A DNA stretch of 64,000 nt from an uncultured Acidobacteriota bacterium. Its GTDB lineage: Bacteria > Acidobacteriota > Thermoanaerobaculia > Multivoradales > UBA5704. The notes beneath the pieces are model-generated. The model did no database searches, had not been told where the DNA came from, and was given only the letters and a program-made list of their open reading frames with translations. The number at the start of each line of letters is the position of its first letter. Within the stretch, counting starts at the first letter, position 1. Location of the stretch: positions 26,597 through 90,596 of the forward strand of contig CAVWOZ010000017.1 in NCBI GenBank assembly GCA_963756595.1, in the 5' to 3' direction. The position numbers and the translations under genes are program-made. Positions 24,762 to 64,000 of this stretch are shown here, one piece after another.

Positions 24762-27680
24762 CTACGGCCGCGCCGACACCCCGCTCACCGTCCGCGCCGT
24801 CAGCCCGGGCCGTCCGGTCACCGCCACGTCGATCTTGCTCCAGGCCGCGGGGGGGGCGGTGTCCTTGGGGTAGAAGGCGACGGTGTACTGGCTGCGCAGC
24901 TCGGAGAGGATCTGGCCGTAGACGTTCGCCAGGTTCTGGTTGGGGTGGATGAAGTAGACCTGGCCGCCTCCCGCCTGGGCGAGGCGCTCGAACTTGGCGG
25001 CGGCGGGCTCGGTGAGGAAGCCGCCGTCGTCGCCGTGCTCCTCGCGGGGGTTCGAGACGATCAGGTAGATGGGGACGCCGCTCTCGCGGGCGGCTTTGAG
25101 GCAGGCCGGGAAGGAGGCGTGCTCGGCCTCGTCGATGCCGTCCGAGTAGATCACCAACGCCTTGCGCCCCGAGATCCCCTGCAGCTGGCCGAGCGAGTAG
25201 GTGATGGCGTCCCAGAGCGCGGTGCCGCCGTCGGGCTGGAGCTGGTCGAGGGCGGCGGCGACCGAGGCGAGGTCGCGGGTCACCGGGCGGACCAGCCGGG
25301 CCTTGGAGTCGAAGTCGACCAGCATCGCGCGGTCGCGAGAGGCGAGGCCGGTGTCGAGGAGCGCGGCGACGGCCTTCTTCACGTCGGGGAGCTTGAGGAA
25401 CATGCTGGCCGAGGAGTCGATGGCGAGCGCCAGGGTGAGCGGCAGCTCGCCGGCGTTCTCGAAGGCGGCGATCTCCTGCGGCTCGCCGTCCTGGCGGACC
25501 TGGAAGGCCTCCTTGGGCAGCCCGGGGACCGGCTTGCCGCCGGCGTCGGTCACCACCACGGCGAGCTGGATCAGGCGGACGTCGATGCGCGCCCCGAGGT
25601 CCGAGGCGTTCAAGGTGATGGCGTCCTCGGCGGTCGAGCCGTCGTCGAGCATGGCCGCCGCCCGCAGGTACCCCTCGGAGCGCTGCCGCGGCACCTTCAC
25701 GGGATAGCGGAAGGGGGGCTCGTAGAGGGTCGCCGCCAGCTCGTCGTTCCAGTAGAGCTCCACCTTCTCGATCCGCCGGCCGGCGGGGACCCGCACGTCG
25801 GCTTCGACGTTCACCGTCCCCACGCCGCGCCGGCTGGCGGGCTCGACGATGCGGACGCCGAAGCTGCCGGCGGGCTCGTTCAAGCGCACGGCGTCGTGGG
25901 CCACCACTTTCCCCGCGGCGTCGTAGGCGATCCCCTGCACGACCTGCGGCCGGGCGCGGCGGCCGAGGTCGAGCTCGGCGTCGCAGGGGACCGTCGCGCA
26001 GGTCGCGGCGCGCCTCCCCTCGAGCTTGACCTCGACCCTGGCGATCCCCGTCCCCTCGCCGTTCACCCGCAGCCGGACCTTGCCGGTCAGCGCGGTGCCG
26101 GCGGGGGGGATCAGGCGGATGCCGGAGCGGACGTTGAGCACCGCGTCGGCCTCCGGCAGCGGGCCGGCCAGGCTCACCACCTGCCCGCCCCACGGGCCGC
26201 CGCTCAGCGGCTCGAGCAGCACGGCGACGACATCCCCCTCGGGGAGGGGGATGCCGAGGTGATAGACCCCCGGCTCGGTCCCAGCGCGGTCGGCGGCGGC
26301 GAGGAGGTGATGGAACGCGCCGCCGGTCAACCCCGCGACGGTGACGCGCAGCGGGCCGGCGGGGATCTTCGGCGACTCGACCCGGAGGTCGAGGATCGCC
26401 CGCCGCTCGCTGCTCCCGGCCGCCGCCGCCGCAGGTGCAGACGTGTCCGGCTGGAGATGGGCGGAGATCTCGAGGCCGAGCCCCTCCTCCTCGTCGGCCA
26501 GGAGGTGGGCGGCGCGCGCCGCGCCCACGGCCCCGGGGATGCCGGCGACGTCCCAGCGCCGCGCCTTGACCACCAAGTCCGGCCGCGAGGTGAGGACCTC
26601 GAGCGGGAGCGGGCGGCCGTCGACCGGGAGAGGCGCCTCCCAGCGGACGGTCGAGCGGGCGCGCAGGTGGACCAGGGCGCCGGCCAAGGCCGAAGCCTGG
26701 AGGACCATCTCGCCGCCGGTCGCCTCGGCCATCCAGGTGAGCGGCTGCTGCGGCGCGAGGAGGGCGGGGGGCGGCGCGGGCTGGTCGGGGGACGGCTCTT
26801 TGCGGCGGTCGAGGGTGATGGTGCCGCCGATGGGCGCTTTGAGGGTCGAGCGCGGCTTGACCCGCCGCAGGTCCGGGAGGGTCGAGTCCCCCATCGGCAC
26901 GGGGATCACCGTCCAGCCGAGCGCCGCGACGGTCCGCGCGATCTCGAGCCCGGCCGTCTCGAGGGCACCCGCGGCCGGCTTCTCCCCGGGCGACAGGAGC
27001 TCGGTGCGGTAGAACTTCGCCGGATCGACGTCGTAGCCGTCGCTGACCAGGAAGACGGCGCGCGGCCCGGTGCCCCCTTGCGCCAGCAGCCACTCGGCGA
27101 AGGCGTCCTGCTGCCGGCGGACCACGTGCACCTCGGAGTCGATCGCCGCCGCGGCCCGGGCGGCGGGGTCGTCCCCCTCCCCCTTCTCGGGGCGTTCGTC
27201 GCGGAAGCGGCGGCGGAGGGCGCGCAGGTCGTCCCGCCCCTCGCTCTCCAGCCAGAGCTTGGAGAGCGCCTCGTCGATCGCCTGCACGTCGCGGGTGGGG
27301 GCGAGCGCCACCCGCGGCTGCGGCTCGGCCACCACCACCTCGACGGTCCCCAGCGCGGCGAGCGTCCGCGCCTGCTCGGCGAGGGTACCGGCGGCGGCGC
27401 GCAGGGTGCGCGAGCCGGAGAGGACGCGGTCGGCCCAGATGACGATCCGCCACGGCTGGTTGACCGGCGTGAGCGCCGTCACCGGCCAGGGCTTGCCGTT
27501 CTCGACCACGGTGAGGTCGTTGACCCCCACCGTGCGCGGCGCCTCCCCCTGGCGGTCGAGGATGAGGACGGGAAGCTCGCGAACGGTGGGGGTGGCGGCA
27601 GGAGAATCCTGGGTCTGCGCGGGAGAGGAGAGGATGCTGGGGGCGAGGAGGACGGCGAGGGAGAGCGGCTTGAGATTCAC
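24762..27680 (-). CDS. Secreted protein with two von Willebrand factor type A domains
   Basis: Signal peptide MNLKPLSLAVLLAPSILSSPAQT. C-terminal VWA with a MIDAS motif (LALAIDSSASM ... GGTALWDAI ... LVIYSDGID) and an N-terminal VWA-like region (IVIWADRV...VFLVSDGYD). Confidence 0.7.
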   Translation of the reverse strand: MNLKPLSLAVLLAPSILSSPAQTQDSPAATPTVRELPVLILDRQGEAPRTVGVNDLTVVENGKPWPVTALTPVNQPWRIVIWADRVLSGSRTLRAAAGTLAEQARTLAALGTVEVVVAEPQPRVALAPTRDVQAIDEALSKLWLESEGRDDLRALRRRFRDERPEKGEGDDPAARAAAAIDSEVHVVRRQQDAFAEWLLAQGGTGPRAVFLVSDGYDVDPAKFYRTELLSPGEKPAAGALETAGLEIARTVAALGWTVIPVPMGDSTLPDLRRVKPRSTLKAPIGGTITLDRRKEPSPDQPAPPPALLAPQQPLTWMAEATGGEMVLQASALAGALVHLRARSTVRWEAPLPVDGRPLPLEVLTSRPDLVVKARRWDVAGIPGAVGAARAAHLLADEEEGLGLEISAHLQPDTSAPAAAAAGSSERRAILDLRVESPKIPAGPLRVTVAGLTGGAFHHLLAAADRAGTEPGVYHLGIPLPEGDVVAVLLEPLSGGPWGGQVVSLAGPLPEADAVLNVRSGIRLIPPAGTALTGKVRLRVNGEGTGIARVEVKLEGRRAATCATVPCDAELDLGRRARPQVVQGIAYDAAGKVVAHDAVRLNEPAGSFGVRIVEPASRRGVGTVNVEADVRVPAGRRIEKVELYWNDELAATLYEPPFRYPVKVPRQRSEGYLRAAAMLDDGSTAEDAITLNASDLGARIDVRLIQLAVVVTDAGGKPVPGLPKEAFQVRQDGEPQEIAAFENAGELPLTLALAIDSSASMFLKLPDVKKAVAALLDTGLASRDRAMLVDFDSKARLVRPVTRDLASVAAALDQLQPDGGTALWDAITYSLGQLQGISGRKALVIYSDGIDEAEHASFPACLKAARESGVPIYLIVSNPREEHGDDGGFLTEPAAAKFERLAQAGGGQVYFIHPNQNLANVYGQILSELRSQYTVAFYPKDTAPPAAWSKIDVAVTGRPGLTARTVSGVSARP

Positions 27681-27749: not shown

Positions 27750-28367
27750 TCAGCTCAGGAATTTCGCGAAGGCGTCCGGGTGGATCCCCCAGGAGAAGAA
27801 GCCGGCGAGCCCCATCACGACGCCGAAGCCGGCGAACAGGATGGCGAGCCCCACCAGCCACTTCTTGCGGGTCAGGGCGCTGACGCCGAGGAGAGCGATG
27901 GCGATGCTCATCGTCGCCTCGGACATGTCGAACTGGTCGTCGTGGGTGTTCAGGCGGTCGTACTCCGCCTGCGCCCCCTCGGCCTCCTTCTTGATGTCCG
28001 CCTTCTCCTTCTCGTACTTCTTGACCTGCTGGGTGTAGGTGGCGATCTCCTTGTCGACCAGCGGCATCGCCGCCCCCGCCCCCTCCGCCTTGCGCAGCTG
28101 GAGCTGGTCGAGGACGCTCTCGGCGAGGTTCTGCTTCGTCCCCTTCGCCTGGTAGTAGGACCACTGATCGACCGCCTTCGCCTGCTCCTGCGACATCGCC
28201 TGCACGATGTTGCCGTCCTTGATGTTGCAGAGCGCCATGAAGGTGGCCAGCAGGGCGACCAGGACGGCGATCACATTATTGAGGGTATCGTTCGATTCCT
28301 TCGCTTTTTCGACCGCTTCGGAGACGGTCTCCGTGATCTCGCTCATGGACGTTGCGTTCCTCGCCAA
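27750..28367 (-). CDS. DUF4337 family membrane protein
   Basis: About 200 aa with an N-terminal acidic helix (MSEITETVSEAVEKAKES), a TM helix, a central Lys/Glu-rich coiled coil and a C-terminal TM pair. The true start may be the M8 ATG at 28346. GC is somewhat lower than flanking DNA. Confidence 0.5.
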   Translation of the reverse strand: MARNATSMSEITETVSEAVEKAKESNDTLNNVIAVLVALLATFMALCNIKDGNIVQAMSQEQAKAVDQWSYYQAKGTKQNLAESVLDQLQLRKAEGAGAAMPLVDKEIATYTQQVKKYEKEKADIKKEAEGAQAEYDRLNTHDDQFDMSEATMSIAIALLGVSALTRKKWLVGLAILFAGFGVVMGLAGFFSWGIHPDAFAKFLS

Positions 28368-28395: not shown

Positions 28396-29535
28396 TCAAA
28401 CTAACACGGACCGGGCTCCCCAGCGCCTCCCCGTCTCGCCGACGTACGCCGATTCCGGACGGATCAGGCGGCCGGTGGCCAGCTGCTCGAGAGCGTGGGC
28501 CGTCCACCCCGCCACCCGGCCGACGGCGAAGAGGGGGGTGAAGAGATCGGTCGGGAACCCCAGCCCGTGGAGCAGCAGCGCGGTGTAGAACTCGACGTTG
28601 GTGTCGAGCGGGCGGTCGGGCTTGCGCTCGCGCAGCAGGCGCAGGGCGGTCGCCTCGACGGAACGGGCGAGGTCGTAGAGCGCCTCGTCGCCGCCGCGGC
28701 GGTAGAAGCGCTCGGCCGCCGCCGCGAGGACGTCGGCGCGCGGGTCGCGCACCCGGTAGACGCGGTGGCCGAACCCCATCAGCCGCTCGCCGCCGTCGAG
28801 CTTGGCGCGCAGCACCTCTTCGGCCCGCTCAGGCGTGCCGATCTCGAACACCATGTCGAGGGCGGGTCCCGGGGCGCCGCCGTGGAGCGGCCCCTTGAGC
28901 GCCCCCACCGCGCCGGTGATCGCGGAGATCAGGTCCGACCGCGTCGAGACGATCACCCGGGCGGTGAAGGTCGAGGCGTTCAGGCCGTGGTCCGACACCG
29001 TGTTGAGGTAGGTCTCGAGGCCGCGCACCCGCTCGGCGTCCGGCTCCCCGCCGTCGAGCATGTAGAGGAGGTTCGCCGCGGCCCCCAGCTCCGGCCGCGG
29101 CGCCAGCGGTTCCTCGCCGCGCAGCAGCCGCTGGTAGGCGGCCACCAGGGTGGGGAACGCCGCCACCAGCAGCACGGCGTCGTCCTCCGGAGAGGCTCCC
29201 GAGCCCGGAGCGAGGCTCAGGCTTCCGGCGGCCATGCGCAGGGCGTCCATGGCCGGCACCCGCCGCCGCGCCGCCGCGCGCAGCAGCTCGATCGTCTCCG
29301 CCGGCACGCCGTGGCGCCCGGCCAGGCGGCGCCGGAACGCCGCCAGCTCTTCGGGGGTGGGAAGATCGCCGTGCCAGAGGAGCCAGACGACCTCCTCGAC
29401 CGTGGCGTTCGGAGCCAGCTCCTCCACCGGGAAACCGGCGAGGAGGAGAATCCCCGCCGCGCCGTCGACGCTGCTCAAACGGGTCGTGGCCGCCACGACC
29501 CCTTCCAGTCCCTGTCCTTGCGATGTGGTCATCAC
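28396..29535 (-). CDS. Citrate synthase family protein (short form)
   Basis: Citrate-synthase fold motifs: LNASTFTARVIVSTRSD, GPLHGGA, the catalytic-His region GFGHRVYRVRDPR, and the C-terminal helix hairpin. 379 aa. Confidence 0.75.
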   Translation of the reverse strand: MMTTSQGQGLEGVVAATTRLSSVDGAAGILLLAGFPVEELAPNATVEEVVWLLWHGDLPTPEELAAFRRRLAGRHGVPAETIELLRAAARRRVPAMDALRMAAGSLSLAPGSGASPEDDAVLLVAAFPTLVAAYQRLLRGEEPLAPRPELGAAANLLYMLDGGEPDAERVRGLETYLNTVSDHGLNASTFTARVIVSTRSDLISAITGAVGALKGPLHGGAPGPALDMVFEIGTPERAEEVLRAKLDGGERLMGFGHRVYRVRDPRADVLAAAAERFYRRGGDEALYDLARSVEATALRLLRERKPDRPLDTNVEFYTALLLHGLGFPTDLFTPLFAVGRVAGWTAHALEQLATGRLIRPESAYVGETGRRWGARSVLV

Positions 29536-29581
29536 GTTCTCCTTCCACGATCGATCTTCGATCCCCTTCTGTAGGTTGTCA

Positions 29582-29603
29582 ATCTTGATTCGCCAATCAA
29601 GAT
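29582..29603. promoter_or_regulatory. Perfect 9-4-9 AT-rich palindrome (candidate operator) in the divergent promoter region
   Basis: ATCTTGATT-CGCC-AATCAAGAT, 16 bp upstream of the ATG of the HTH-citrate-synthase-like gene. It stands out against the roughly 70% GC background. Confidence 0.45.
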
Positions 29604-29619
29604 ATGGAATCGTGGCGGC

Positions 29620-30823
29620 ATGGAAGAGCGCTTCTTGAACGCCCAGGAGGCGGCCGCCGAGCTCGGCGTGTCGCTCGCCACCCTCTACGCCTACGCGAGC
29701 CGCGGGATGCTGCGCTCGGAGTCGGTTCCAGGCGAGTCGCGCGCGCGGCGCTACCCGCGCGAGGACGTGCTGCGGCTCAAGGAGAAGAAGGAGCTGCGCC
29801 GCGACCCCGAGCGGGTGGCGCCGAAGGCGCTCTCGTGGGGGGCGCCAGTGCTGTCGTCGGCGATCACGCTGGTCGAGGACGGGCGCCTCTACTACCGCGG
29901 GCGGGACGCGACCGAGTTGGCGCGGACGACGGTCGAGGAGGTGGCGGCGCTGATCTGGACCGGCGATGGGGACGCCGCCCAGTCGCTGTTCGCCGGCGAG
30001 CTCCCTCCCCTACCCGGTTGGAGCCTGCCGGCGGGGCTGACCCCGATCGAGCGCTGCCAGGTGGCTGTCCCCTGGATGGGGGCGGCGGACCTCGCGGCGT
30101 GGGACCTGCGGCCAGCGGCGGTGGCGGCGACCGGAGCGCGCATCCTGCGGCGGCTGGCGGGGGTGGCGGCCAGTCTCTCCCAGCGTTGGCGGCATCGCGT
30201 CCATCCTCCAGGCCGGCTGGGCGCCGGGGCGTCCGGAGGTGGCGGCGCCGATCGGCGCGGCACTGATCCTCGCCGCCGACCACGAGCTCAACGTCTCGGC
30301 GTTCACCGCCCGCTGCGTCGCCTCGGCCGCCGCCTCACCCTGGGACGTGGTCTCGGCCGGGCTCGCAGCGCTCAAGGGGGCGCGCCACGGCGGCCACACG
30401 GCGCGAGTGGAGGCGCTGTTCCGGGAGATCGGAACGGCGGCGGAGGCGCGGCAGGTCCTCGCCGGCCGCCTGCGGCGCGGCGAGGAGATCCCGGGGTTCG
30501 GGCACCCGCTCTACCCGGATGGCGACCCGCGCGGCGCGGCGCTGCTCGCGCTGGCGGCCGGGCTCGCCCCGGATTCGCCGGCGGTCGGCGAGGCGCGGGC
30601 GCTCGCCGAGGCCGGGCGCGAGCTGCTCGGCGAGCACCCCACGATCGACCTCGGCCTGGTCGCCTTGAGCCACGCCCTCGACCTGCCGGAGCACACGCCG
30701 CTGGCCCTCTTCGCGCTCGGCCGCACTATCGGCTGGATCGGTCACGCCATCGAGGAATACGCCGCGAACCGGCTGATCCGCCCGCGCGCCGCCTACGTCG
30801 GCGAGCCTCCCGCGCCCGGCTGA
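29620..30823 (+). CDS. HTH (MerR/excisionase-type) domain fused to a citrate-synthase-like domain, frameshifted near 30180
   Basis: N-terminal HTH_17-like motif LNAQEAAAELGVSLATLYAYASRGML. The citrate-synthase-like body changes frame at about 30180 (frame 1 ...RLAGVAASLS | frame 2 VGGIASILQAGW...AALILAADHELNVSAFTARCVAS...EIPGFGHPLYPDGDPR). Confidence 0.65.
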
Positions 30824-31025: not shown

Positions 31026-32045
31026 ATGCCGAAGTTTGTGCTCGACCACGACGAGGTGGCGTCGATCCAGAAGCTGCTCGCCGGGATCGCGGCGAAGTAC
31101 CGCTCGGCCGAGGACCCCGAGCTCCTGCTCGAGGCGAATCTGCTGGCCCACGAGCTCCCCCGCCGCCTGCGCGCCGCTCTCAACGAGTTCCGCCTCACCG
31201 AGCCCGACGAGGCGATGCTGGTCATCTCGGGGTTCCCGGTCGACGACGTGAAGATCGGCTTGACGCCCGAGCACTGGAAGCTGTCGTCGGAACAGCGGGA
31301 GCCCACCCTCGAGGAGGAGATCCTCTTCGTGCTCGCCGGCTCGCTGCTCGGCGAGTGCATCGGCTGGGCGACCCAGCAGGACGGCCGGATCGTGCACGAC
31401 GTGATGCCGGTCAAGGGGATGGAGCAGGAGCAGATCGGCATCGGCAGCGAGCAGACCATCTGGTGGCACACCGAGGACGCCTTCCACCCGCTGGCCGGCG
31501 ACTACATCGGGCTGATGTTCCTGCGCAACCCGGACCACGTGCCGACCACTTTCGCCCCCGTCGCCGATCTGGGGCTCGCCGACGAGGACCTCGACCTCCT
31601 CTTCGCGCCCCACTTCACCATCCAGCCCGACAAGTCGCACCGGCCGGAGAACGCCGGCGACGCCAAGGGGGAGGGGGACGGCCACCTCTTCGATCACATC
31701 GAGGAGCTGCGCAAGGCGCCGCCGAAGATCGCCATCCTCTCCGGCGACCGCAAGTCCCCCTACATCCGGATCGACCCCTACTTCATGGACCCGGCGGCCG
31801 ACAGCCCGCGGGCGCTCCAGGCGTTCGAGGCGCTGGTCAAGGCGCTCGACGCGCGGATCGGCGACCTCGCCCTCGACGCCGGCGAGATCTGCTTCGTCGA
31901 CAACCGCAAAGCGGTGCACGGCCGCCGCGCCTTCAAGGCGCGCTACGACGGCCACGACCGCTGGTTCAAGCGGATGAACATCACGCGCGACCTCCGGAAG
32001 TCGCGGGAGGCCCGCTCCGACGCGGCGTCACGGATCATCCAGTAA
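31026..32045 (+). CDS. Fe(II)/2-oxoglutarate-dependent oxygenase, clavaminate-synthase-like (VioC/AsnO/MppO-type amino-acid beta-hydroxylase family)
   Basis: 339 aa with the HxE/D facial-triad motif WHTEDAFHP and the distal H...R pair in RKAVHGRRAF. Size and motif spacing match VioC/AsnO. AAAGGA SD before the ATG. Adjacent to the NRPS cluster. Confidence 0.65.
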   Translation: MPKFVLDHDEVASIQKLLAGIAAKYRSAEDPELLLEANLLAHELPRRLRAALNEFRLTEPDEAMLVISGFPVDDVKIGLTPEHWKLSSEQREPTLEEEILFVLAGSLLGECIGWATQQDGRIVHDVMPVKGMEQEQIGIGSEQTIWWHTEDAFHPLAGDYIGLMFLRNPDHVPTTFAPVADLGLADEDLDLLFAPHFTIQPDKSHRPENAGDAKGEGDGHLFDHIEELRKAPPKIAILSGDRKSPYIRIDPYFMDPAADSPRALQAFEALVKALDARIGDLALDAGEICFVDNRKAVHGRRAFKARYDGHDRWFKRMNITRDLRKSREARSDAASRIIQ

Positions 32046-32110: not shown

Positions 32111-32833
32111 TTGGACCCACTCCCCCGCCGCCGACCGAAGTCCGGAAACGCCGCCTTCCCCGCCTCCGGCGGCGGGATGCGGGCGCTGTTCCTGGGGAGC
32201 AGCCTCACCTACGCCAACGACATGCCCTTCATCGTGCAGGCGATGGCGCGGGCGATCGGCAAATCGCTCGACGTCGCCGTGGTGGCGCAGGGCGGGGCCA
32301 ACCTCGAGGACCAGTGGCACCGCGGCGAGGCGCTGCGCAAGATCAAGGAGGGGGGGTGGAGCTTCGTGATCCTGCAGCAGGGGCCGTCGACGGTGCCGGA
32401 GAACCGCGAGAACATGCGGGAGTACACGCGCCGCTTCGCCGAGCCGATCCACAAGGCGGGAGGCCGGCCGGCGCTCTACATGGTCTGGCCGAGCGCCGAC
32501 CGCATGGCCTGGTTCGACGAGGTCCGCAAGTCCTACACGCTGGCCGCCGAGGACGTCGGCGGCATGCTGATCCCGGCCGGCGAGGCCTGGCGGGCGGCGT
32601 GGCGGCGCGATCCCGACGTTTCCCTGCTCAAGCGCGACGGCGTCCACCCCACCCCGGCGGGGTCGTTCACGGTGGCGCTGTCGATCTTCGGCATGCTGTT
32701 CAGCCGCTCGCCGGTGGGGCTGCCGGCGCGCGTGAGGCTGCGCCACGGCGCCTTCGCGCAGGTGGCGCCGTCCCTCGCGCCCCTCCTCCAGGACGCGGCC
32801 GCCGAAGCCAACGACCAGTACGGCCTGCGATGA
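32111..32833 (+). CDS. SGNH/GDSL-like hydrolase family protein (DUF4886-like), paralog 1
   Basis: Block I ALFLGSSLTYAND (a GNSL-like motif) and a DxxH-like C-terminal motif (DGVHPTPAG). TTG start at 32111 preceded by a TAGGAGA SD; the alternative ATG is at 32177. No signal peptide is evident. Confidence 0.5.
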   Translation: MDPLPRRRPKSGNAAFPASGGGMRALFLGSSLTYANDMPFIVQAMARAIGKSLDVAVVAQGGANLEDQWHRGEALRKIKEGGWSFVILQQGPSTVPENRENMREYTRRFAEPIHKAGGRPALYMVWPSADRMAWFDEVRKSYTLAAEDVGGMLIPAGEAWRAAWRRDPDVSLLKRDGVHPTPAGSFTVALSIFGMLFSRSPVGLPARVRLRHGAFAQVAPSLAPLLQDAAAEANDQYGLR

Positions 32834-32885
32834 ACCCCCACGGCGCGATCCCGCGCTCCATCCATCACCCATGGGAGACCGGCAG

Positions 32886-33680
32886 ATGTCGATTCGAGGC
32901 AACGGCCTTTCCGTCGCCGGCGCGGCTTCGCGCCTCGCGATCATCCTGTCCCTGCTGTTCGGCTGCGCCGGCAAGTCCGGCGCGGAGCCCGAGAAAGGCG
33001 AACCCGTGAAATCCGGCAAGACTCTGCGCGTCCTCTTCCTCGGCAACAGCCTGACCTACGCCAACGAGATCCCGCTCATCGTGCAGGCGCTCGCCAGGTC
33101 GGCCGGCCAGGAGCTCTACGTCGAATCGATCACGTATCCCAACTTCAACCTCGAGGACCAGTGGAACCAGGGGGACGCGCTGCGCGCCCTCGACACCAAG
33201 AAGTGGGATTACGTGGTGATGCAGCAGGGACCCTCGTCGCTGATCGAAAACCGCGAGGACATGCGCAAGTGGGCCAAGCAGTTCGCCCCCCGGATCAAGA
33301 AGGCCGGCGCCCGCCCCGCGATGTACATGGTGTGGCCGGACAAGAGCCGGATGGCCTACTTCGACGACGTCCGCGAGGCCTACTCGCTCACCGCCTCGGA
33401 CATCAAGGGGATGTTCATCCCCGCCGGCGAGGCGTGGCGGGCGGCCTGGAAGCGGGATCCGGGCGCCCCGCTCTACTCCTACGACGACTTCCATCCGTCG
33501 GTCGCCGGCTCCTACACCTCGGCGCTGTCGATCTACGGCATGCTCTACAACCGGCCGTTGCAGGGGCTCCCCGCGAAGCTCACGATCGCCGGCAGCCACG
33601 ACATCGAAGTCCCCGCGCCGCTCGCCAAGCTTCTCCAGGAGGCGGCGACCGAGGCGAACCAGAAGTACGGCCGCCCCTGA
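32886..33680 (+). CDS. SGNH/GDSL-like hydrolase family lipoprotein, paralog 2
   Basis: About 55% identical to paralog 1 (VLFLGNSLTYANEIPLIVQALAR...MYMVWPDKSRMAYFDDVREAY...DDFHPSVAGSY). Lipoprotein signal MSIRGNGLSVAGAASRLAIILSLLFGCAG with a GGGAGA SD. The longest ORF begins at 32871. Confidence 0.55.
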   Translation: MSIRGNGLSVAGAASRLAIILSLLFGCAGKSGAEPEKGEPVKSGKTLRVLFLGNSLTYANEIPLIVQALARSAGQELYVESITYPNFNLEDQWNQGDALRALDTKKWDYVVMQQGPSSLIENREDMRKWAKQFAPRIKKAGARPAMYMVWPDKSRMAYFDDVREAYSLTASDIKGMFIPAGEAWRAAWKRDPGAPLYSYDDFHPSVAGSYTSALSIYGMLYNRPLQGLPAKLTIAGSHDIEVPAPLAKLLQEAATEANQKYGRP

Positions 33681-37684: not shown

Positions 37685-40600
37685 TCAGGAGGCGGCGCCG
37701 GCGCCGCGGGTCCGATAATCGTTGACGAACCAGCGCAGCACCTCGCGGCAGTGCGCCGCCAGCGCCTGCACCGTTTCGACCTTGTGCAGGTTGGTGTTGT
37801 GCTCCCACTTGATCAGCAGCTTGTCCTCGATGACGTAAGCGCCGATGGTGATCGGGCAGAGCCGCTTGGTGCCGCGGTCCTGGTGATAGCCGCCGAACAT
37901 CTGGAGCTTGCGCAGCCGCTCGAGCTCCTTGGCGTTGTCGGGGCCGAGGTAGTTGAAGAAGACCTGCGGCTCGAGCGCCTTGTGCATGTGGTCGACGACG
38001 TCCGGATCGGTCGAAAGATAGCGCAGCAGCCCGAAGCCCGTGCCGCCGTGCGGGATGCGCCGCAGCTGGCGGTTGAGCTCGCGGGCGCTGGCGATCCAGT
38101 CCGGGTCGGGACCGAGGTCGAGGAGCACCGGATAGATGGTGTTGAACCAGCCGATGCTGCGCGTCAGGTCCATGTCGTCGTAGAGCGCCTCGCGGCCGTG
38201 GCCGAGGAGGAGGATGGGGAGCGAGCGCGAGCCGATCCAGCGCTCGAAGGCGGTGAGCACGGCGGCGACCAGCACGGCGTCGATCTGCACGCCGAGGAAG
38301 CGCGGCACCTGCTGCAGCAGGATCTGGGTCTCCTCGAGGTCGAACTCGGCGGGCTGGAAGCGCGCCGAGATCCAGTCGTTCGGCCCCAGCTCGTGATCCA
38401 TCGGGAAGCGCGGCGGATTGATCGGCGCCTGCGCCAGCCAGTAGTCGAGCTCCTGCTGCGGCATCCCCCCCGGCTTCGCCCGCGCCGCCAGCCGCTCGGC
38501 CCACTGCTGCGCCGAGGTGGTCTTGCGCGGCACCGAGATCGCCTCCCCCGCCTCGAGCTGCCGGTAGGCGGCGTCGAGGTCGTCGAGCAGCATCTGCCAG
38601 GAGTTGATGTCGGCCGCCATGTACTGCCCGGTGATGTGAAGAAAACGGATCTTCCCCGGCTGGAGATCGAACATAACGGTACGAATCAGGTTGCCTTCCG
38701 CCATTTTGCAGCTTATCACGAGCTCGCGGACCGCCTTCGACATCACCAGCATCTGCTGGTCCTCGGCGACCTCGGAGAGGTCGACCCGCAGCAGGTTGAC
38801 CGGCGCGCCCGGCGGGTCGATGACGAGCGAGAGGCCCTTCCCCGCGACTCCCTCGCTCTCCTCGCCGACCACCCGCACCCGCAGGTTGTCGTGGTGGCGC
38901 ATGACGTGCTCCATCGCCGCCTGGAAGAGGTGGAACTGGAGGTCGCCGTCCTTCGGCTCGAACAGCATGCCGATCGTGTGGTAGTCGGGGTTCGGGTGGT
39001 GCTGGTCGAGGAAATGGAGCTGCGCCGGCGTCCAGCCGACCGCCCCGGTGACCGGACCCTGCTCGGCGACGATCTCGATGGTGCCGGCGACGGCGGCCAG
39101 CTCGGCGACCGTGCGGTGCTGGAAGACCTGCTTGGTGGTGATCCCCATCGCCGCCTTGTTCGCCTTGGTGACCACGCGGATGACGAGGAGCGAGTCGCCC
39201 CCCAGCTCGAAGAAGTCGTCGTTGATCCCCACCCGCTCGAGCGAGAGGAGCTCGGCCCAGAGGGCGCAGAAGAACTCCTCCTTCTCGTCGCGCGGCGCCA
39301 CGTACTCGCGGGCCGCCGAGGCGCGGTCGGGGGCCGGCAGGGCGCGGCGGTCGACCTTGCCGTTGGGGGTCAGCGGCATGGCGTCGAGGAAGGTGTAGAC
39401 CGCCGGCACCATGTACTCCGGCAGCTTCTCCTTGAGATAGGTGCGCAGGTCGGTGACGTTCGGCTTATCAGTACCGGCGGCGGTCACCAGATAGGCGGCG
39501 AGCTGCTTGCTGCCGGGCGAATCCTCGCGCGCCACCACCACCGACTGGCCGACCGCCGGATGGTGGTCGAGGGCGGCCTCGATGTCGCCGAGCTCGATGC
39601 GGAAGCCGCGCACCTTGACCTGGTGGTCGATGCGGCCGAGGAACTCGACGCGGCCGTCGGCGAGATGGCGCGCCAGATCGCCCGTGCGGTAGAGGCGCGC
39701 TCCCGGCTCCTCGACCAGCGCGGCGAACGGATGCGGGATGAACTTCTCGGCGCTGAGGTCCGGGCGCCCCCGGTAGCCGCGGGAGAGGCCGGCGCCGCCG
39801 ATCAGCAGCTCGCCCGGCACCCCGGCCGGCACCGGCTTGAGCTGGCGCGAGACGAGGTAGATCTCTGTGTTGTCGAGCGGCCTGCCGATGGTGATCGGCC
39901 CGGACGAGCCGACCTGGTCGAGGGTCGACCAGATCGTCGCCTCGGTCGGGCCGTAGACGTTCCACAGCGAGCCGCAGGCGGCGAGCAGCTGGCTCGCGAG
40001 GTCGCGCGGCAGCGCCTCGCCGCCGCAGAGGATCTTCAGGTCGCGGTCGCCGAGCCACCCCGCGGCGAGCAGCAGCCGCCAGGTGGCGGGGGTCGCCTGC
40101 ATGGCGGTGACCCCCTTCTGCTCGAGGACCTCGCGGAGCTTCTCCCCCGCCTGCGTGGTCTCGCGGGTGACCAGGATCAGCCGCGCGCCGCAGACCAGCG
40201 GCAGGTAGAGCTCGAGCCCCGCGATGTCGAAGGAGAGGGTGGTGACGGCGAGCAGGGTGTCGGCGCTGGTCAGCCCCGGGCGCTTGCGCATCGAGTTGAG
40301 GAAGTTGACCACCGCCGAGTGCGGGATCTGCACCCCCTTCGGCTTCCCCGTCGACCCCGAGGTGTAGATCACGTAGGCCACGTTCCCCGCCTGGACGCCG
40401 GCGTCGAGGGGGTCGGCGCTCTCGGCGGCGATCGCCGCCGCGTCGCGGTCGACCGCCACGATCCGCGCGCCGTGCTCGGGGAGGCGCTCGATCAGGTGTT
40501 CCTGGGTGAGGAGCACCGGTACCCGCGAGTCGTCGAGCATGTGGGCGAGGCGCTCCTTCGGGTACTCGGGGTCGAGCGGCACGTAGCCGCCCCCCGCCTT

Positions 40601-42340
40601 GAGCACCGCGAGCACCCCGGCCAGCATGTCGAGCGAGCGCTCCATGGCGAGGCCGACCAGCGTCTCCGTCCCCACGCCGTGGCGGCGCAGGTGATGGGCC
40701 AGGCGGTTGGCCCGCTCGTCGAGCTGGCGGTAGGTCAGCCGGCTCTCCTCGAGCTCGACGGCGACGGCGTCCGGGGTCTCCCGCACCCGTTCCTCGATCC
40801 AGCCGTGGAGGGTGACGGCGGGGACCTCGGCCGCGGTGGCGTTCCAGTCGACCAGCACCTGCCGCCGCTCCTCGTCCGAGAGCAGCGGCAGCTCCGAGAG
40901 GTGGAGTCCGGGGTGCGCGATCACCGCCGCCAGCACCCGCCGGTAGTGGTCGAGCAGGCGCTCCATGGTGCCGCGCTCGAAGAGGTCGGTGTTGTACTCG
41001 AGGAAGCCGTCGATGCCGGTCGGCGTGTCGGTGAAATAGAGGGTCAGCTCGGTCTTCGAGGTGCGGCTGTCGATCGCCACCGGCTGCAGCTTGAGCCCCG
41101 GCAGGTCCATCGCCTCGCCGGGGGCGTTCATCAGGATCAGCATCACCTGGAAGAGCGGCGTGCGGGCCATGTCGCGCGGCGGGTTGAGCTCCTCGACGAG
41201 CTTCTCGAACGGCACGTCCTGATGGGCGTAGGCGTCGAGCGACACCTCGCGCTCGCGCCCCAGCAGCTCGCGGAAGGTCGGGTCGCCGGAGAGGTCGCTG
41301 CGCAGCACCAGGCTGTTGGCGAAGAAGCCGATCAGCACCTCGATCTCCGGCTGGCGGCGGTTCGCGATCAGCGTGCCGACCGCGATGTCCTCCTGGGTGG
41401 TCCAGTGATGGAGGAGCGCCTTGAAGGCCGCCATCAACGCGATGAACAGGGTCGACCCCTCGCGCTGCGCGAAGGCCTTGAGGTCGCCCGCCAGACGGTC
41501 GCCGAGCACCAGCGGGATGGCGGTGCCGTTGTGCGAGCGCACGGCCGGGCGCGGGTGGTCGGTCGGCAGCTCGAGCGGCGGCACCGAGCCGAGCTGGCGG
41601 CGCCAGAAGGCGAGCTGCGCCTCGAGCACCTCGCCGGAGAGCCACTCCCGCTGCCAGACCGCGAAGTCGAGGTACTGGATGGGGAGGTCGAGCAGCGTCG
41701 AGGGGATGCCGGCCGCGAAGGCGTCGTAGATCGCCGCCAGCTCGCGGGCGAAGATCCCCATCGACCAGCCGTCGTAGGCGATGTGGTGCACGTTGTAGTA
41801 GAGCAGGTACTCGCGCTCGCCGGCGCGGAAGAGCTTGGCGCGCATCAGCGGCCCGAGGGTGAGGTCGAACGGCTCGCGGGCGTCGGCGGCGGCGAGACGC
41901 AGCGCCTCCCCCCAGGCGTCGGCCGGGTCGCTCACCCGCGGCCGCGCGTCGACGTAGGGGACCTCCATGTCGACCACCTGCGCGATCACCTGCGCCGGCG
42001 TCCCCTCGATCGAACGGAAGGTGGTGCGCAGCGTCTCGTGGCGGCGCACCACCTCGCGGAGCGCCTTCTGCATCACCTCCGGATCGAGCTCGCCGACGAT
42101 GCGGAAGGCCTGCGGGATGTTGTACTCCGGGCTCTCCGGCTCGAAGTTGTTGAGGAACCAGAGTCGCTGCTGGGCGAAGGAGAGCGGGTAGGTCTCGCTC
42201 TCGCGGGGCTGGCGCGGGATGCGCTTCGCCTCGCCGGCCGGCTTCTCCTTTTCCCGCTGTTTCTGGAGCTGCTCGAAAAGGAGCATGCGCTTCTCGAGCG
42301 GCAGCTCGGCGATGCGCTTGGCGATTTCTGTTTCCGTCAT
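37685..42340 (-). CDS. NRPS, final module: C-A-T plus terminal condensation-like domain
   Basis: N-terminal docking helix, then a C domain (YPLSFAQQRLWFL). A-domain core motifs are YTSGSTGKPKG, NVYGPTE, YRTGDLAR and VKVRGFRIELGDIE; T-domain motif is FFELGGDSLL. The C-terminal roughly 450 aa form a C-like domain with a degenerate His motif (LHITGQYMAADINSW). No thioesterase domain is present. Hand-extracted specificity code DILQLGVIWK matches the Gly code DILQLGLIWK at 9 of 10 positions. Confidence 0.9.
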   Translation of the reverse strand: MTETEIAKRIAELPLEKRMLLFEQLQKQREKEKPAGEAKRIPRQPRESETYPLSFAQQRLWFLNNFEPESPEYNIPQAFRIVGELDPEVMQKALREVVRRHETLRTTFRSIEGTPAQVIAQVVDMEVPYVDARPRVSDPADAWGEALRLAAADAREPFDLTLGPLMRAKLFRAGEREYLLYYNVHHIAYDGWSMGIFARELAAIYDAFAAGIPSTLLDLPIQYLDFAVWQREWLSGEVLEAQLAFWRRQLGSVPPLELPTDHPRPAVRSHNGTAIPLVLGDRLAGDLKAFAQREGSTLFIALMAAFKALLHHWTTQEDIAVGTLIANRRQPEIEVLIGFFANSLVLRSDLSGDPTFRELLGREREVSLDAYAHQDVPFEKLVEELNPPRDMARTPLFQVMLILMNAPGEAMDLPGLKLQPVAIDSRTSKTELTLYFTDTPTGIDGFLEYNTDLFERGTMERLLDHYRRVLAAVIAHPGLHLSELPLLSDEERRQVLVDWNATAAEVPAVTLHGWIEERVRETPDAVAVELEESRLTYRQLDERANRLAHHLRRHGVGTETLVGLAMERSLDMLAGVLAVLKAGGGYVPLDPEYPKERLAHMLDDSRVPVLLTQEHLIERLPEHGARIVAVDRDAAAIAAESADPLDAGVQAGNVAYVIYTSGSTGKPKGVQIPHSAVVNFLNSMRKRPGLTSADTLLAVTTLSFDIAGLELYLPLVCGARLILVTRETTQAGEKLREVLEQKGVTAMQATPATWRLLLAAGWLGDRDLKILCGGEALPRDLASQLLAACGSLWNVYGPTEATIWSTLDQVGSSGPITIGRPLDNTEIYLVSRQLKPVPAGVPGELLIGGAGLSRGYRGRPDLSAEKFIPHPFAALVEEPGARLYRTGDLARHLADGRVEFLGRIDHQVKVRGFRIELGDIEAALDHHPAVGQSVVVAREDSPGSKQLAAYLVTAAGTDKPNVTDLRTYLKEKLPEYMVPAVYTFLDAMPLTPNGKVDRRALPAPDRASAAREYVAPRDEKEEFFCALWAELLSLERVGINDDFFELGGDSLLVIRVVTKANKAAMGITTKQVFQHRTVAELAAVAGTIEIVAEQGPVTGAVGWTPAQLHFLDQHHPNPDYHTIGMLFEPKDGDLQFHLFQAAMEHVMRHHDNLRVRVVGEESEGVAGKGLSLVIDPPGAPVNLLRVDLSEVAEDQQMLVMSKAVRELVISCKMAEGNLIRTVMFDLQPGKIRFLHITGQYMAADINSWQMLLDDLDAAYRQLEAGEAISVPRKTTSAQQWAERLAARAKPGGMPQQELDYWLAQAPINPPRFPMDHELGPNDWISARFQPAEFDLEETQILLQQVPRFLGVQIDAVLVAAVLTAFERWIGSRSLPILLLGHGREALYDDMDLTRSIGWFNTIYPVLLDLGPDPDWIASARELNRQLRRIPHGGTGFGLLRYLSTDPDVVDHMHKALEPQVFFNYLGPDNAKELERLRKLQMFGGYHQDRGTKRLCPITIGAYVIEDKLLIKWEHNTNLHKVETVQALAAHCREVLRWFVNDYRTRGAGAAS

Positions 42341-48300: not shown

Positions 48301-48999
48301 GGCGCAGCGCCTCGCCGTGCAGGCGCTGGCGCTGCGCGCGGGCGAAGTCGGCATAGCTCGCCCGCAGCGCCGGGAGGTCGGGCTTCCCACCGGTGGCAAA
48401 GGCAGAATAGAGCGCGGCGAAGTCGCGCAGGATCAGCCCCACCGACCAGCCGTCGCTGACGATGTGGTGGTGGCAGAGCAGGAGCACGTGCTCCTCGCCC
48501 CCCAGACGCAGCAGCGTGGCGCGGAAGAGCGGCCCGCGGGCGAGGTCGAACGGCCGGCGCGACTCCTCGCCGGCGAGCGCCGTCGCCCGCTCCAGGGCCT
48601 CCTCCGGCGCCAGTCCGGTGAGATCGACGACCCTGACCAGAGGGCCGGCACCCGGAAGCTCACGCTCGACGCGCTGCACCGGCTCCGCCCCCTCGAGAGG
48701 GAAGCGGGTGCGCAGCGACGCGTGGCGGCGGACCAGCCCGTCGAGCGAGCGCTCGAGCGCCCCGCGGTCGAGGACCCCCGTCAGGCGCAACGCCCGGAAC
48801 ATGTTGTCGAGGTAGCTGCCGGGGTCGAGCTGGTCGAGGAACCAGAAGCGCTGCTGCGCGAAGGAGAGCGGATAGTCCCCCGGCTCGGCCGCCGATACCG
48901 CGGGAGGGGCGCCGCCCATCGCCTTTTCACGGGCGAGGCGGGCGACGAGGGCGAGCTTCTCCTCGCGCGAGAGGTTGGCGAGATCGGCCGGGGCGACGC

Positions 49000-49003
<4 letters not shown>
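42383..49003 (-). CDS. NRPS, two modules (C-A-T-C-A-T)
   Basis: The real start is a GTG at 49003 overlapping the upstream gene's TGA (GTGA); the protein begins MSVAPADLANLSREEKLALVARLAREKA. C domains carry HHIVSDGWS motifs. A1 has a non-canonical A5 (NSYASTE) and the code DIEDVGSVTK (acidic pocket). A2 reads DFWNIGMVHK, an exact match to the Thr code. It ends with a COM-like tail. The 3789-aa ORF listed for this frame is an upstream artifact. Confidence 0.9.
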
Positions 49004-55551
<6,548 letters not shown>

Positions 55552-55566
55552 AGTAGGGATGACTCC

Positions 55567-64000
<8,434 letters not shown>

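What the first reader, a model, noticed from the sequence alone, without database searches (positions are those of the whole stretch)
28396..30823. Divergent pair of citrate-synthase-like genes, one fused to a HTH domain, with a perfect AT-rich palindrome in the shared promoter
A short citrate-synthase paralog (28396-29535, minus) is transcribed divergently from a gene encoding an N-terminal MerR/excisionase-type HTH fused to a second citrate-synthase-like fold (29620-30823, frameshifted near 30180). The 9-4-9 palindrome ATCTTGATT-CGCC-AATCAAGAT lies 16 bp before the HTH gene's ATG. It is a plausible auto-operator, which would make the HTH-citrate-synthase-like protein a ligand-sensing regulator rather than an enzyme. 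Its position at the edge of the NRPS cluster raises the question of whether it regulates or feeds the pathway.
Basis: partly seen in the sequence, partly recalled or inferred. Interest (0 to 1): 0.5.

Follow-up and report, generated by a model that had tools for sequence, protein, structure and literature searches.

The report
Citrate-synthase-fold regulator with conserved operator
A citrate synthase gene sits back-to-back with a gene for a DNA-binding domain fused to a second citrate-synthase fold, and the palindrome between them is the local copy of a DNA site that is almost unchanged in bacteria from more than eight phyla, which points to a widespread, unstudied family of enzyme-derived gene regulators.

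Summary
A 378-aa short-type citrate synthase (CS-A, 28396-29532, minus) faces a winged-HTH/citrate-synthase fusion gene (29620-30823, plus). The fusion gene is split by a 2-nt deletion at about 30170-30172. The 9-4-9 palindrome (29582-29603) is unique in the window.

The palindrome is the local form of a motif, T(T)GTCAAT-N-TTGATT-N4/5-AATCAATAT. That motif occurs upstream of the fusion gene in 78 of 84 non-redundant related loci as an exact pattern match, and in all but one with up to 2 mismatches. Its left edge is a TTGAC(A) -35 box on the opposite strand, followed 17 nt later by nAnnnT in 52/80 loci. This is a promoter for the divergent gene, which is a CS in 51 loci, an HMGL-like synthase in 9 and a CoA-transferase in 10.

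The partner CS carries Glu at the catalytic Asp position (45/47). The fusion keeps the full pocket in this window, but 20/70 diverse members and 47/120 close relatives have lost a catalytic residue.

Best reading: a CS-fold, ligand-sensing transcription factor that controls the divergent CitA-type gene. No link to the NRPS cluster is conserved. I found no paper on this family.

The parts
28396..29532 (-). CS-A: a 378-aa short-type (CitA-like) citrate synthase. It has Glu (NVEFY) at the position of the catalytic Asp; both catalytic His and the three substrate-binding Arg are present.
   Evidence: Pfam Citrate_synt 391 bits. NCBIfam NF009005 367.8 bits, above the cutoff of 332. The best PDB match is B. 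subtilis CitA 2C6X, which also has NVEFY. It is 92% identical to the 378-aa gene of L001. Glu is found in 45/47 partner CS proteins.
29554..29559 (-). Predicted -10 hexamer GAAGAT of the CS-A promoter. This is an inference. The predicted transcription start is near 29547 on the minus strand.
   Evidence: nAnnnT lies 17 nt after TTGAC(A) in 52/80 loci, against 0-8 (once 20) at spacings outside 16-18. The tool's stricter consensus scan reports no promoter here.
29577..29582 (-). Predicted -35 hexamer TTGACA of the CS-A promoter. It overlaps the left flank of the operator.
   Evidence: TTGACA occurs in 45/79 related loci and TTGAC in 71/79, always in the same register with the dyad.
29576..29606 (.). 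Conserved operator block TTGTCAATCTTGATTCGCCAATCAAGATATG. It contains the perfect 9-4-9 palindrome at 29582-29603 and a third half-site, GTCAAT, at 29578-29583.
   Evidence: Unique in the window, against 0.01 expected. The exact pattern is found once, upstream of the fusion gene, in 78 of 84 non-redundant loci from many phyla.
29620..30171 (+). Fusion gene, 5' part (frame 1). The winged HTH is residues 5-61 (29632-29802), the flexible linker is about residues 62-79, and the citrate-synthase fold then begins.
   Evidence: Pfam HTH_17 and MerR_1. AlphaFold2 gives pLDDT above 90 for residues 1-60 and below 50 for 67-79. Foldseek matches Xis, SoxR, BldC and RacA.
30170..30172 (+). Frameshift site: a 2-nt deletion relative to intact orthologues, in a variable loop encoded by a GGCGGC-rich tract.
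   Evidence: It is the only frame-split gene among 11 shared with L001. Divergence from L001 is dominated by third codon positions both before and after the site.
30173..30823 (+). Fusion gene, 3' part (frame 2): the rest of the citrate-synthase fold, with His222, His257, His296, Arg305, Asp344, Arg369 and Arg388 (numbering of the repaired protein).
   Evidence: Pfam Citrate_synt covers residues 73-390. PDB alignments. Residue counts. The model of the 92%-identical orthologue P0002 has pLDDT 94 and a target-normalised TM-score (TMt) of 0.78 to T. thermophilus CS.

Best explanation
The pair is one copy of a widespread two-gene module. The fusion protein is a transcription factor. Its citrate-synthase (CS) fold supplies dimerisation and a ligand pocket. 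Two MerR/Xis-type winged-HTH domains hang from it on flexible linkers of about 15-20 residues. They bind the two arms of the dyad TTGATT-N4-AATCAA, and probably the adjacent GTCAAT half-site as well.

The dyad is centred at about -45 relative to the start of a sigma-70-type promoter (TTGACA-17 nt-GAAGAT) that drives the divergent CitA-type CS gene, and it overlaps that promoter's -35 box. It also lies 16 nt upstream of the regulator's own start codon. Occupancy of the site therefore controls CS-A and probably the regulator itself.

Shown here: the architecture, the conservation of the motif, its fixed register with the divergent promoter, and the pattern of pocket-residue conservation.

Inferred: that the fusion protein is what binds the motif; that the effector is a CS ligand (oxaloacetate, acetyl-CoA/CoA or citrate); and that ligand-induced domain closure changes DNA binding.

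The sign of control is unknown. My guess is repression relieved by substrate, because half-sites cover a consensus -35 box.

In this window the regulator gene carries a 2-nt deletion. If that is real, the regulator is inactive here.
For: Family size and spread:
- The N-terminal 147 residues find 1221 clusters at 50% identity with E<=1e-10.
- At least 596 species-representative genomes encode the TLYAYVSRG helix.
- The phyla include Acidobacteriota, Chloroflexota, Actinomycetota, Gemmatimonadota, Deinococcota, Myxococcota and Alpha-, Beta- and Gammaproteobacteria.

Operator:
- An exact pattern match occurs once per locus, upstream of the fusion gene, in 78 of 84 non-redundant loci. With up to 2 mismatches it is found in all but L058.
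- The motif stays with the fusion gene whatever the divergent gene is: CS in 51 loci, HMGL-like in 9, CoA-transferase III in 10.
- The recognition-helix residues L22, Y23, Y25, S27, R28 and G29 are invariant or at least 90% conserved (invariant; L22 and S27 at >=90% in the larger alignment), matching the invariant DNA motif.

Promoter of the divergent gene:
- TTGAC is present in 71/79 loci. nAnnnT follows at exactly 17 nt in 52/80, with 13-14 more at 16 or 18 nt.

Structure:
- The N-terminal domain is modelled as a beta-alpha-alpha-beta-beta-alpha winged helix with pLDDT above 90, followed by a disordered linker.
- It matches Xis, SoxR, BldC and RacA at TMt 0.74-0.82.

Pocket residues:
- The substrate-binding residues (Arg329, Arg401, Arg421 and His238 equivalents) are kept in 94-97% of 65 diverse members. 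The catalytic His320 and Asp375 equivalents are kept in 83-85%.
- 20/70 diverse members have at least one change. Among 120 close relatives, the His320 equivalent is Gln in 46.
- By contrast, the partner CS keeps all positions in 45-47 of 47.
- The fusion fails every curated CS model.
Against: There is no experimental evidence, and DNA binding by this protein is inferred only from co-occurrence.

The window's copy and 68/77 species-level orthologues keep the whole catalytic set, so the protein could also be an active enzyme.

The Foldseek E-values for the small HTH domain are 0.03-0.1, which is not significant on their own.

The -10 hexamer in this window matches TATAAT at only 3 of 6 positions, and the tool's promoter scan finds nothing.

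The conserved TTGTCA/TTGACA could be a protein half-site rather than a -35 box, or both.

The gene is frameshifted in this window, so the mechanism may not operate in this organism.
Confidence: 0.7

Rival explanations
1. The protein is both enzyme and regulator. The fusion would be an active citrate (or 2-methylcitrate) synthase that also represses its own promoter region, in the manner of PutA or BirA. DNA binding would then report catalytic state or flux.
For: The complete His-His-Asp plus three-Arg pocket is present in the window's copy, in 50/70 diverse members and in 68/77 species-level members. The CS fold is modelled confidently (pLDDT 94).
Against: Catalytic residues are lost repeatedly: 20/70 diverse members have a change, and His is replaced by Gln in 46/120 close relatives. 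The partner CS never loses them. The fusion scores far below every curated CS or methylcitrate synthase cutoff.
Confidence: 0.2
2. The fusion acts on the partner CS protein rather than on DNA. It would form a heteromer with CS-A or titrate its substrates, and the conserved DNA motif would belong to some other, unlinked regulator or be only a promoter element.
For: CS enzymes are obligate dimers with shared active sites, and the two paralogues are always co-encoded in 51 loci.
Against: The motif and the fusion gene persist together where the partner is an unrelated HMGL-like enzyme or a CoA-transferase. The invariant recognition helix parallels the invariant motif. A 25-nt block conserved across phyla is far more than a generic promoter requires.
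Confidence: 0.05
3. The pair belongs to the neighbouring NRPS cluster, either as its pathway regulator or as a supplier of citrate for a siderophore-like product.
For: The pair lies about 7 kb from the NRPS genes, with a TauD-like gene and an MFS_3 exporter between them. In A. fabrum pAt the pair sits next to ECF-sigma/FecR/TonB-receptor genes.
Against: An NRPS homologue lies near the pair only in the syntenic contig L001, out of 88 loci. Relatives at 77-80% identity have unrelated flanking genes. No second operator copy exists anywhere in the 64-kb window.
Confidence: 0.05

Closest known systems
MerR-superfamily winged-HTH proteins: MerR/SoxR/BmrR and the small members BldC, RacA and phage Xis (Pfam MerR_1, HTH_17)
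   Same: The N-terminal beta-alpha-alpha-beta-beta-alpha winged helix passes the Pfam thresholds and has its best structural matches here. The site is a dyad in a divergent promoter region, and in some loci it lies inside a 19-nt spacer when read towards the regulator gene.
   Different: There is no long coiled-coil dimerisation helix and no C-terminal MerR effector domain. The HTH is tethered by a disordered linker to a CS fold of about 320 residues. For the target promoter the dyad lies upstream of and over the -35 box, not inside its spacer, which has the ordinary 17-nt length.
Enzyme-derived transcription factors such as MocR/GabR/PdxR (HTH plus aminotransferase fold), PutA, BirA and NadR (from my own knowledge)
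   Same: A DNA-binding domain is fused to a complete enzyme fold that supplies dimerisation and a small-molecule pocket. The gene usually lies divergent to the metabolic gene it controls.
   Different: The effector fold is citrate synthase and the HTH is MerR/Xis-type rather than GntR-type. I found no characterised example with a CS fold.
B. subtilis citA-citR, a minor citrate synthase with a divergent dedicated regulator, and the citrate-responsive regulator CcpC (from my own knowledge)
   Same: A CitA-type minor CS is controlled from a divergent promoter by its own regulator. CS-A's best solved relative is B. subtilis CitA (2C6X), which shares the Glu-for-Asp change.
   Different: CitR and CcpC are LysR-type proteins unrelated to CS. 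Here the regulator is itself a CS paralogue, 33-37% identical to its target over about 200 residues.
Short-type citrate and 2-methylcitrate synthases (T. thermophilus 1IXE, M. tuberculosis PrpC 3HWK, M. tuberculosis CitA 8GM9/6WGY)
   Same: The fold is the same, with target-normalised TM-scores of 0.7-0.8. The pocket residues are also shared.
   Different: None of the solved proteins has an N-terminal HTH. The fusion is about 40 residues shorter across the Pfam model and falls below all curated family cutoffs.
Caulobacter CitA, a citrate synthase that controls the cell cycle independently of its catalysis (bioRxiv 10.1101/799742, found)
   Same: It is a CS paralogue with a regulatory role that does not need enzymatic activity.
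   Different: The Caulobacter protein has no DNA-binding domain, and no operator is known for it.

Membership tests
Citrate synthase family (Pfam PF00285) | Domain match above the gathering score | tested here: met
   CS-A scores 390.9 bits and the fusion 199.8 bits, against a cutoff of 27.
Citrate synthase family (catalytically competent enzymes) | Catalytic His274, His320 and Asp375 (pig numbering), plus His238, Arg329, Arg401 and Arg421 | tested here: inconclusive
   Fusion: all seven are present in this window, but they vary across the family (His320 is Gln in 46/120 close relatives; 20/70 diverse members have a change). CS-A: all are present except Asp375, which is Glu, as in B. subtilis CitA. 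Activity was not measured.
NCBIfam NF009005 (PRK12350, 'citrate synthase' subfamily, CitA-like) | Whole-protein score above the curated cutoff of 332 | tested here: met
   CS-A scores 367.8 bits. The fusion scores 135.5 bits and is therefore not a member.
Type II (hexameric, housekeeping gltA) citrate synthase (TIGR01798 / NF004126) | Score above the curated cutoff (485 / 505) | tested here: not met
   CS-A scores 179.6 and 213.3 bits. The fusion scores 74.2 and 87.7 bits.
HTH_17 / excisionase-type HTH (PF12728) | Domain match above the gathering score of 27 | tested here: met
   30.4 bits over residues 5-57. TIGR01764 'excise' scores 21.3 bits, below its cutoff of 28.8.
MerR family regulators | N-terminal winged HTH of MerR type | tested here: met
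   PF13411 MerR_1 scores 29.7 bits against a cutoff of 21.6. PF00376 scores 19.7 bits, below its cutoff of 28.2. Structural matches are SoxR, HiNmlR, MtaN and BmrR.
MerR family regulators | Long antiparallel coiled-coil dimerisation helix after the wing, followed by a C-terminal effector-binding region | tested here: not met
   The models show a 15-residue helix (47-61), then a low-confidence segment (62-79), then the CS fold.
MerR family regulators | Operator dyad inside an over-long (19-20 bp) spacer of the target promoter | tested here: inconclusive
   Read towards the fusion gene, TTGTCA-19 nt-TATATN scores at least 4 of 6 in 29/79 loci. Read towards the divergent target gene, the spacer is 17 nt and the dyad lies upstream of the -35 box.

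The most novel reading that the evidence does not exclude
The citrate-synthase fold serves here as the effector domain of a previously unrecognised class of bacterial transcription factor. The classical oxaloacetate-induced domain closure of the enzyme would be used to move two tethered winged-HTH domains on or off a single operator sequence that has stayed almost invariant across more than eight phyla. A CS paralogue would thus measure the substrates of the enzyme whose gene it controls. The target would be interchangeable among three kinds of enzyme that all use an acyl-CoA: Si-type CS, HMGL-like synthase and CoA-transferase.
Probability: 0.45. Interest if true: 0.8.

Novelty: new variant of a known kind. 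Interest (0 to 1): 0.62.

Why it matters
If it is right, this adds a large family to the enzyme-derived transcription factors: at least 1200 protein clusters at 50% identity and at least 596 species. It would come with a ready-made operator consensus and a predicted target promoter.

It would also give a natural sensor for central metabolites (oxaloacetate, acetyl-CoA or citrate). That is of interest both for understanding how minor CitA-type citrate synthases are controlled and as a biosensor scaffold.

The module occurs in tractable organisms, including A. fabrum C58 plasmid pAt, Deinococcus and Burkholderia/Paraburkholderia. The hypothesis can therefore be tested directly with gel-shift and reporter assays.

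The Glu-for-Asp change that marks all partner synthases also defines a distinct CS subgroup whose catalytic consequences are worth measuring.

Tried and rejected
- Literature. Five on HTH/MerR plus citrate synthase, enzyme-derived regulators and 'citrate synthase family protein' found no paper on this fusion; one apparent hit (PMC9394381) was irrelevant. Separate searches for work on M. tuberculosis CitA and on Re-citrate synthase gave nothing usable, and two searches on the A. fabrum pAtC58 genes are listed under the transcription-start item.
- Transcription start in A. fabrum. I looked for an experimental start site for the A. fabrum pair in File S1 of PMC10469942. There was no entry for these genes or coordinates in the stored, truncated file. 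Two searches, for pAtC58/'Atu5' with 'citrate synthase' and for 'Atu530' with 'citrate synthase', found no paper on this pair.
- Built-in promoter and terminator scan of 29400-29750. It found nothing at its threshold. The promoter call therefore rests on the cross-locus enrichment instead.
- NRPS link. Rejected (and the flanks).
- Other operator copies in the window. None, even with 3 mismatches.
- Pseudogene decay. Divergence from L001 is dominated by third codon positions both before and after the frameshift, so the lesion is recent or an artefact.
- Re-citrate synthase. I considered calling the HMGL-like partners Re-citrate synthases. I did not, because no reference model or sequence was available and they fall below all NCBIfam cutoffs.
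- Scripting errors. One line (the CS-A comparison) was run on the wrong strand and is ignored. The upstream-ORF picker chose spurious long ORFs in some GC-rich loci; the tblastn-based classification replaces it.
Full report
**What is in the window**

The window is 70.7% G+C. On the minus strand, 28396-29535 is an ORF with a full-length Citrate_synt domain (391 bits). It passes the curated NCBIfam subfamily NF009005 (PRK12350), with 367.8 bits against a cutoff of 332. It falls far below the type II gltA models. Its best solved relatives are B. subtilis CitA (2C6X, 300 bits) and T. thermophilus CS. The likely start is ATG 29532, which has GGAG 6 nt upstream and gives the 378 aa called in the syntenic contig L001.

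On the plus strand, ATG 29620 opens a gene whose first 60 residues match HTH_17 (30.4 bits, cutoff 27) and MerR_1 (29.7 bits, cutoff 21.6). The rest matches Citrate_synt (200 bits, residues 73-390).

The reading frame changes at about 30170-30172. Against the 90%-identical contig L001, the window lacks 2 nt in a GGCGGC-rich tract that encodes a variable loop.

The 22-nt palindrome ATCTTGATT-CGCC-AATCAAGAT is at 29582-29603, 16 nt before the ATG. It is unique in the window, against 0.01 expected by chance.

**The frameshift**

All 120 listed homologues (72-93% identical) are intact proteins of about 400 aa. Ten other genes shared with L001 are collinear in one frame each; only this gene is split. 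Divergence from L001 is dominated by third codon positions both before the shift (31 of 47 differences) and after it (37 of 62). The lesion is therefore either very recent or a local assembly error. The tools available here cannot decide between these. My 401-aa 'repaired' protein differs from the ideal repair by two or three residues in that loop.

**The pair is a conserved module, unrelated to the NRPS genes**

Thermoanaerobaculia relatives at 77-93% identity have the same divergent CS/fusion pair. Their flanks are different, and only the syntenic contig L001 has the NRPS genes.

The N-terminal 147 residues (HTH, linker and the start of the CS fold) find 1221 cluster representatives at 50% identity with E<=1e-10. 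These come from the following groups:
- Chloroflexota
- Actinomycetota (Rubrobacteraceae, Gaiellaceae)
- Gemmatimonadota
- Acidobacteriota
- Deinococcota
- Myxococcota
- Binatia
- Latescibacterota
- Alpha-, Beta- and Gammaproteobacteria

In the best 80 of these loci plus the earlier ones, the gene immediately divergent to the motif is distributed as follows:
- a CS in 51 loci;
- an HMGL-like synthase of the homocitrate/isopropylmalate/citramalate-synthase superfamily in 9;
- a family III CoA-transferase in 10;
- a methyltransferase or a LeuB-like dehydrogenase, with the CS behind it, in 3.

A homologue of the window's NRPS lies near the pair only in L001.

**The palindrome is the local copy of a deeply conserved site**

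Aligning the intergenic regions gives T(t)GTCAAT-N-TTGATT-N4-AATCAAtaTat (58 loci). In 21 loci, mostly Alpha- and Betaproteobacteria, the spacer is N5.

The exact pattern TCAA[TC]NTTGA[TC]-N5-7-[AG]T[CA]AA occurs once, upstream of the fusion gene, in 78 of 84 non-redundant loci. With up to 2 mismatches it is found in all but L058.

The consensus is itself a 9-4-9 palindrome (ATATTGATT-N4-AATCAATAT). The window's version keeps the symmetry with a C...G pair at the third position. L001 and L002 do not, so the perfection of the outer three base pairs is specific to this window.

The motif stays with the fusion gene whichever gene lies on the other side. The predicted recognition helix is conserved to match: L22, Y23, Y25, S27, R28 and G29 are invariant, and are invariant or at least 90% conserved in the larger alignment. 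This is the main argument that the fusion protein binds this site. It is an inference from co-occurrence, not a demonstration.

**Promoter geometry**

On the opposite strand, the left flank of the motif reads TTGACA in 45/79 loci and TTGAC in 71/79. Exactly 17 nt downstream, nAnnnT occurs in 52/80 loci (TAnnnT in 35). There are 13-14 more at 16 or 18 nt, and 0-8 (once 20) at every other spacing from 8 to 35 nt. The sequence there is otherwise unconserved, so this is independent evidence for a sigma-70-type promoter that fires towards the divergent gene.

In the window the elements on the minus strand are:
- the -35 box TTGACA at 29582-29577;
- the -10 hexamer GAAGAT at 29559-29554;
- a predicted start near 29547, about 15 nt before the CS-A ATG, with GGAG in between.

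The dyad centre is then at about -45.5, and the third half-site lies over the -35 box.

The tool's stricter scan reports no promoter here, because GAAGAT matches TATAAT at only 3 of 6 positions.

The distance from the motif to the fusion gene's start varies. It ranges from 0 to about 160 nt, and reaches about 1 kb where another gene is inserted. The register with the divergent -35 box, by contrast, is fixed.

Read towards the fusion gene, TTGTCA-19 nt-TATATN resembles a MerR-type promoter in 29/79 loci. In several loci, however, the start codon abuts the motif, so I treat that reading as unresolved.

**The two proteins**

The AlphaFold2 model of residues 1-125 shows a beta-alpha-alpha-beta-beta-alpha winged helix with pLDDT above 90. 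It is followed by a segment with pLDDT below 50 (residues 67-79). The best Foldseek matches are mycobacteriophage Pukovnik Xis, SoxR, BldC, RacA and HiNmlR. They have target-normalised TM-scores (TMt) of 0.74-0.82 and rmsd of 1-2 A over about 50 residues. The E-values are only 0.03-0.1, because the domain is small.

The full-length model of the intact 92%-identical orthologue P0002 has pLDDT 94.2. It superposes on short-type CS and 2-methylcitrate synthases at a target-normalised TM-score of about 0.78. No solved structure has this architecture.

The window's fusion keeps the equivalents of pig His238, His274, His320, Arg329, Asp375, Arg401 and Arg421. Across the family the picture is mixed:
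- Among 120 close relatives, the His320 equivalent is His in 73, Gln in 46 and Leu in 1.
- Among 65 diverse members, His238 and the three Arg are kept in 94-97%, His274 in 91%, and His320 and Asp375 in 85% and 83%.
- 20 of 70 diverse members carry at least one change.
- In 77 species-level loci the full set is kept in 68, whatever the partner type.

The partner CS, in contrast, keeps every position in 45-47 of 47 sequences. It always has Glu where other CS enzymes have the catalytic Asp (45/47). B. subtilis CitA and the A. fabrum partner share this Glu.

The two paralogues are 33-37% identical over about 200 residues. They form two separate orthologous groups across phyla.

**Interpretation**

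The best-supported reading is a transcription factor whose effector and dimerisation domain is a citrate-synthase fold. It binds a dyad that overlaps the -35 box of the divergent CitA-type gene and precedes its own gene.

Two observations fit a sensor that uses the CS pocket: the substrate-binding residues are conserved more strictly than the catalytic acid and base, and the targets are all enzymes that use an acyl-CoA. Oxaloacetate, acetyl-CoA/CoA and citrate are the obvious candidate ligands. The sign of control is open.

I lean towards repression relieved by ligand, for two reasons. Half-sites cover a consensus -35 box, and in 28/80 loci a further half-site lies in the target promoter's spacer. 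A bifunctional enzyme-regulator is the main rival, because most members keep a complete active site.

**What is known**

The five full-text searches aimed at this fusion found no paper on it. NCBI annotates it only as 'citrate synthase family protein'.

The closest concepts are enzyme-derived regulators such as MocR/GabR, the B. subtilis citA-citR pair, and Caulobacter CitA, which has a catalysis-independent regulatory role (10.1101/799742). The first two comparisons rest on my own knowledge.

The module is present on A. fabrum C58 plasmid pAt (ATU_RS25365/ATU_RS25370) with the operator GGTCAATCTTGATTTATATAATCAATAC. It is also on Deinococcus, Burkholderia, Paraburkholderia, Ensifer and Chelatococcus replicons. 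The hypothesis can therefore be tested directly.

**Verdict**

The operator idea is strongly supported by comparative evidence. 'Regulator rather than enzyme' is plausible but unproven. The NRPS link is rejected. In terms of novelty, this is a new variant of a known kind, namely an enzyme-fold transcription factor, and it belongs to a large uncharacterised family.

Noticed in passing
L014, L023, L036, L039 (Calidithermus), L044, L046, L060 and L083 (Deinococcus), L067: about 40-120 nt left of the operator: In these loci the divergent partner of the fusion gene is not a CS. It is a 435-476-aa HMGL-like synthase of the homocitrate/isopropylmalate/citramalate-synthase superfamily, below all NCBIfam cutoffs. 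Re-citrate synthases belong to this same superfamily. The operator and the -35 overlap are unchanged.
   Followed up: partly
L062, L063, L071, L072, L077-L079, L081, L084 (Burkholderia, Paraburkholderia, Pandoraea, Telmatospirillum, Xylophilus), L038: Here the divergent partner is a family III CoA-transferase (PF02515). Its N-terminal extension of about 200 residues matches no family.
   Followed up: partly
L088 (A. fabrum C58 plasmid pAt, NC_003064.2 299436-306831): The CS/fusion pair (ATU_RS25365/ATU_RS25370) lies next to genes for an ECF sigma factor, FecR and a TonB-dependent siderophore receptor. The annotated start of the fusion gene overlaps the CS gene and is probably about 100 nt too far upstream.
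   Followed up: partly
L008 3819-3925: There are two full operator copies 85 bp apart in a 348-bp intergenic region of an Anaerolineae MAG.
   Followed up: no
L016 2982-3944; also L033 and L047: A gene of about 1 kb sits between the operator and the fusion gene, presumably co-transcribed with it. In L016 it encodes a PLP-dependent PALP-family enzyme.
   Followed up: partly
window 32111-32833 and 32871-33680 (+): These are tandem paralogues, 53% identical, of 240 and 269 aa. They have at most a weak DUF4886 match. They lie between a TauD-like gene (31026-32045) and the CBM9/DUF5916, MFS_3 and NRPS genes.
   Followed up: no
window 37685-63999 (-): This is a run of very large NRPS ORFs (37685-42340, about 42383-49000, 49000-55551, 55567-63891) that extends off the window. 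The mechanical ORF 42383-53752 overlaps the next gene in another frame, which is probably an open-frame artefact of the high G+C content.
   Followed up: no
window 24762-27680 and 27750-28367 (-): A VWA_2/Big_7 protein (972 aa) and a DUF4337 protein lie to the left of CS-A. This left flank is shared with L001 and L005 but not with L002 or L006.
   Followed up: no
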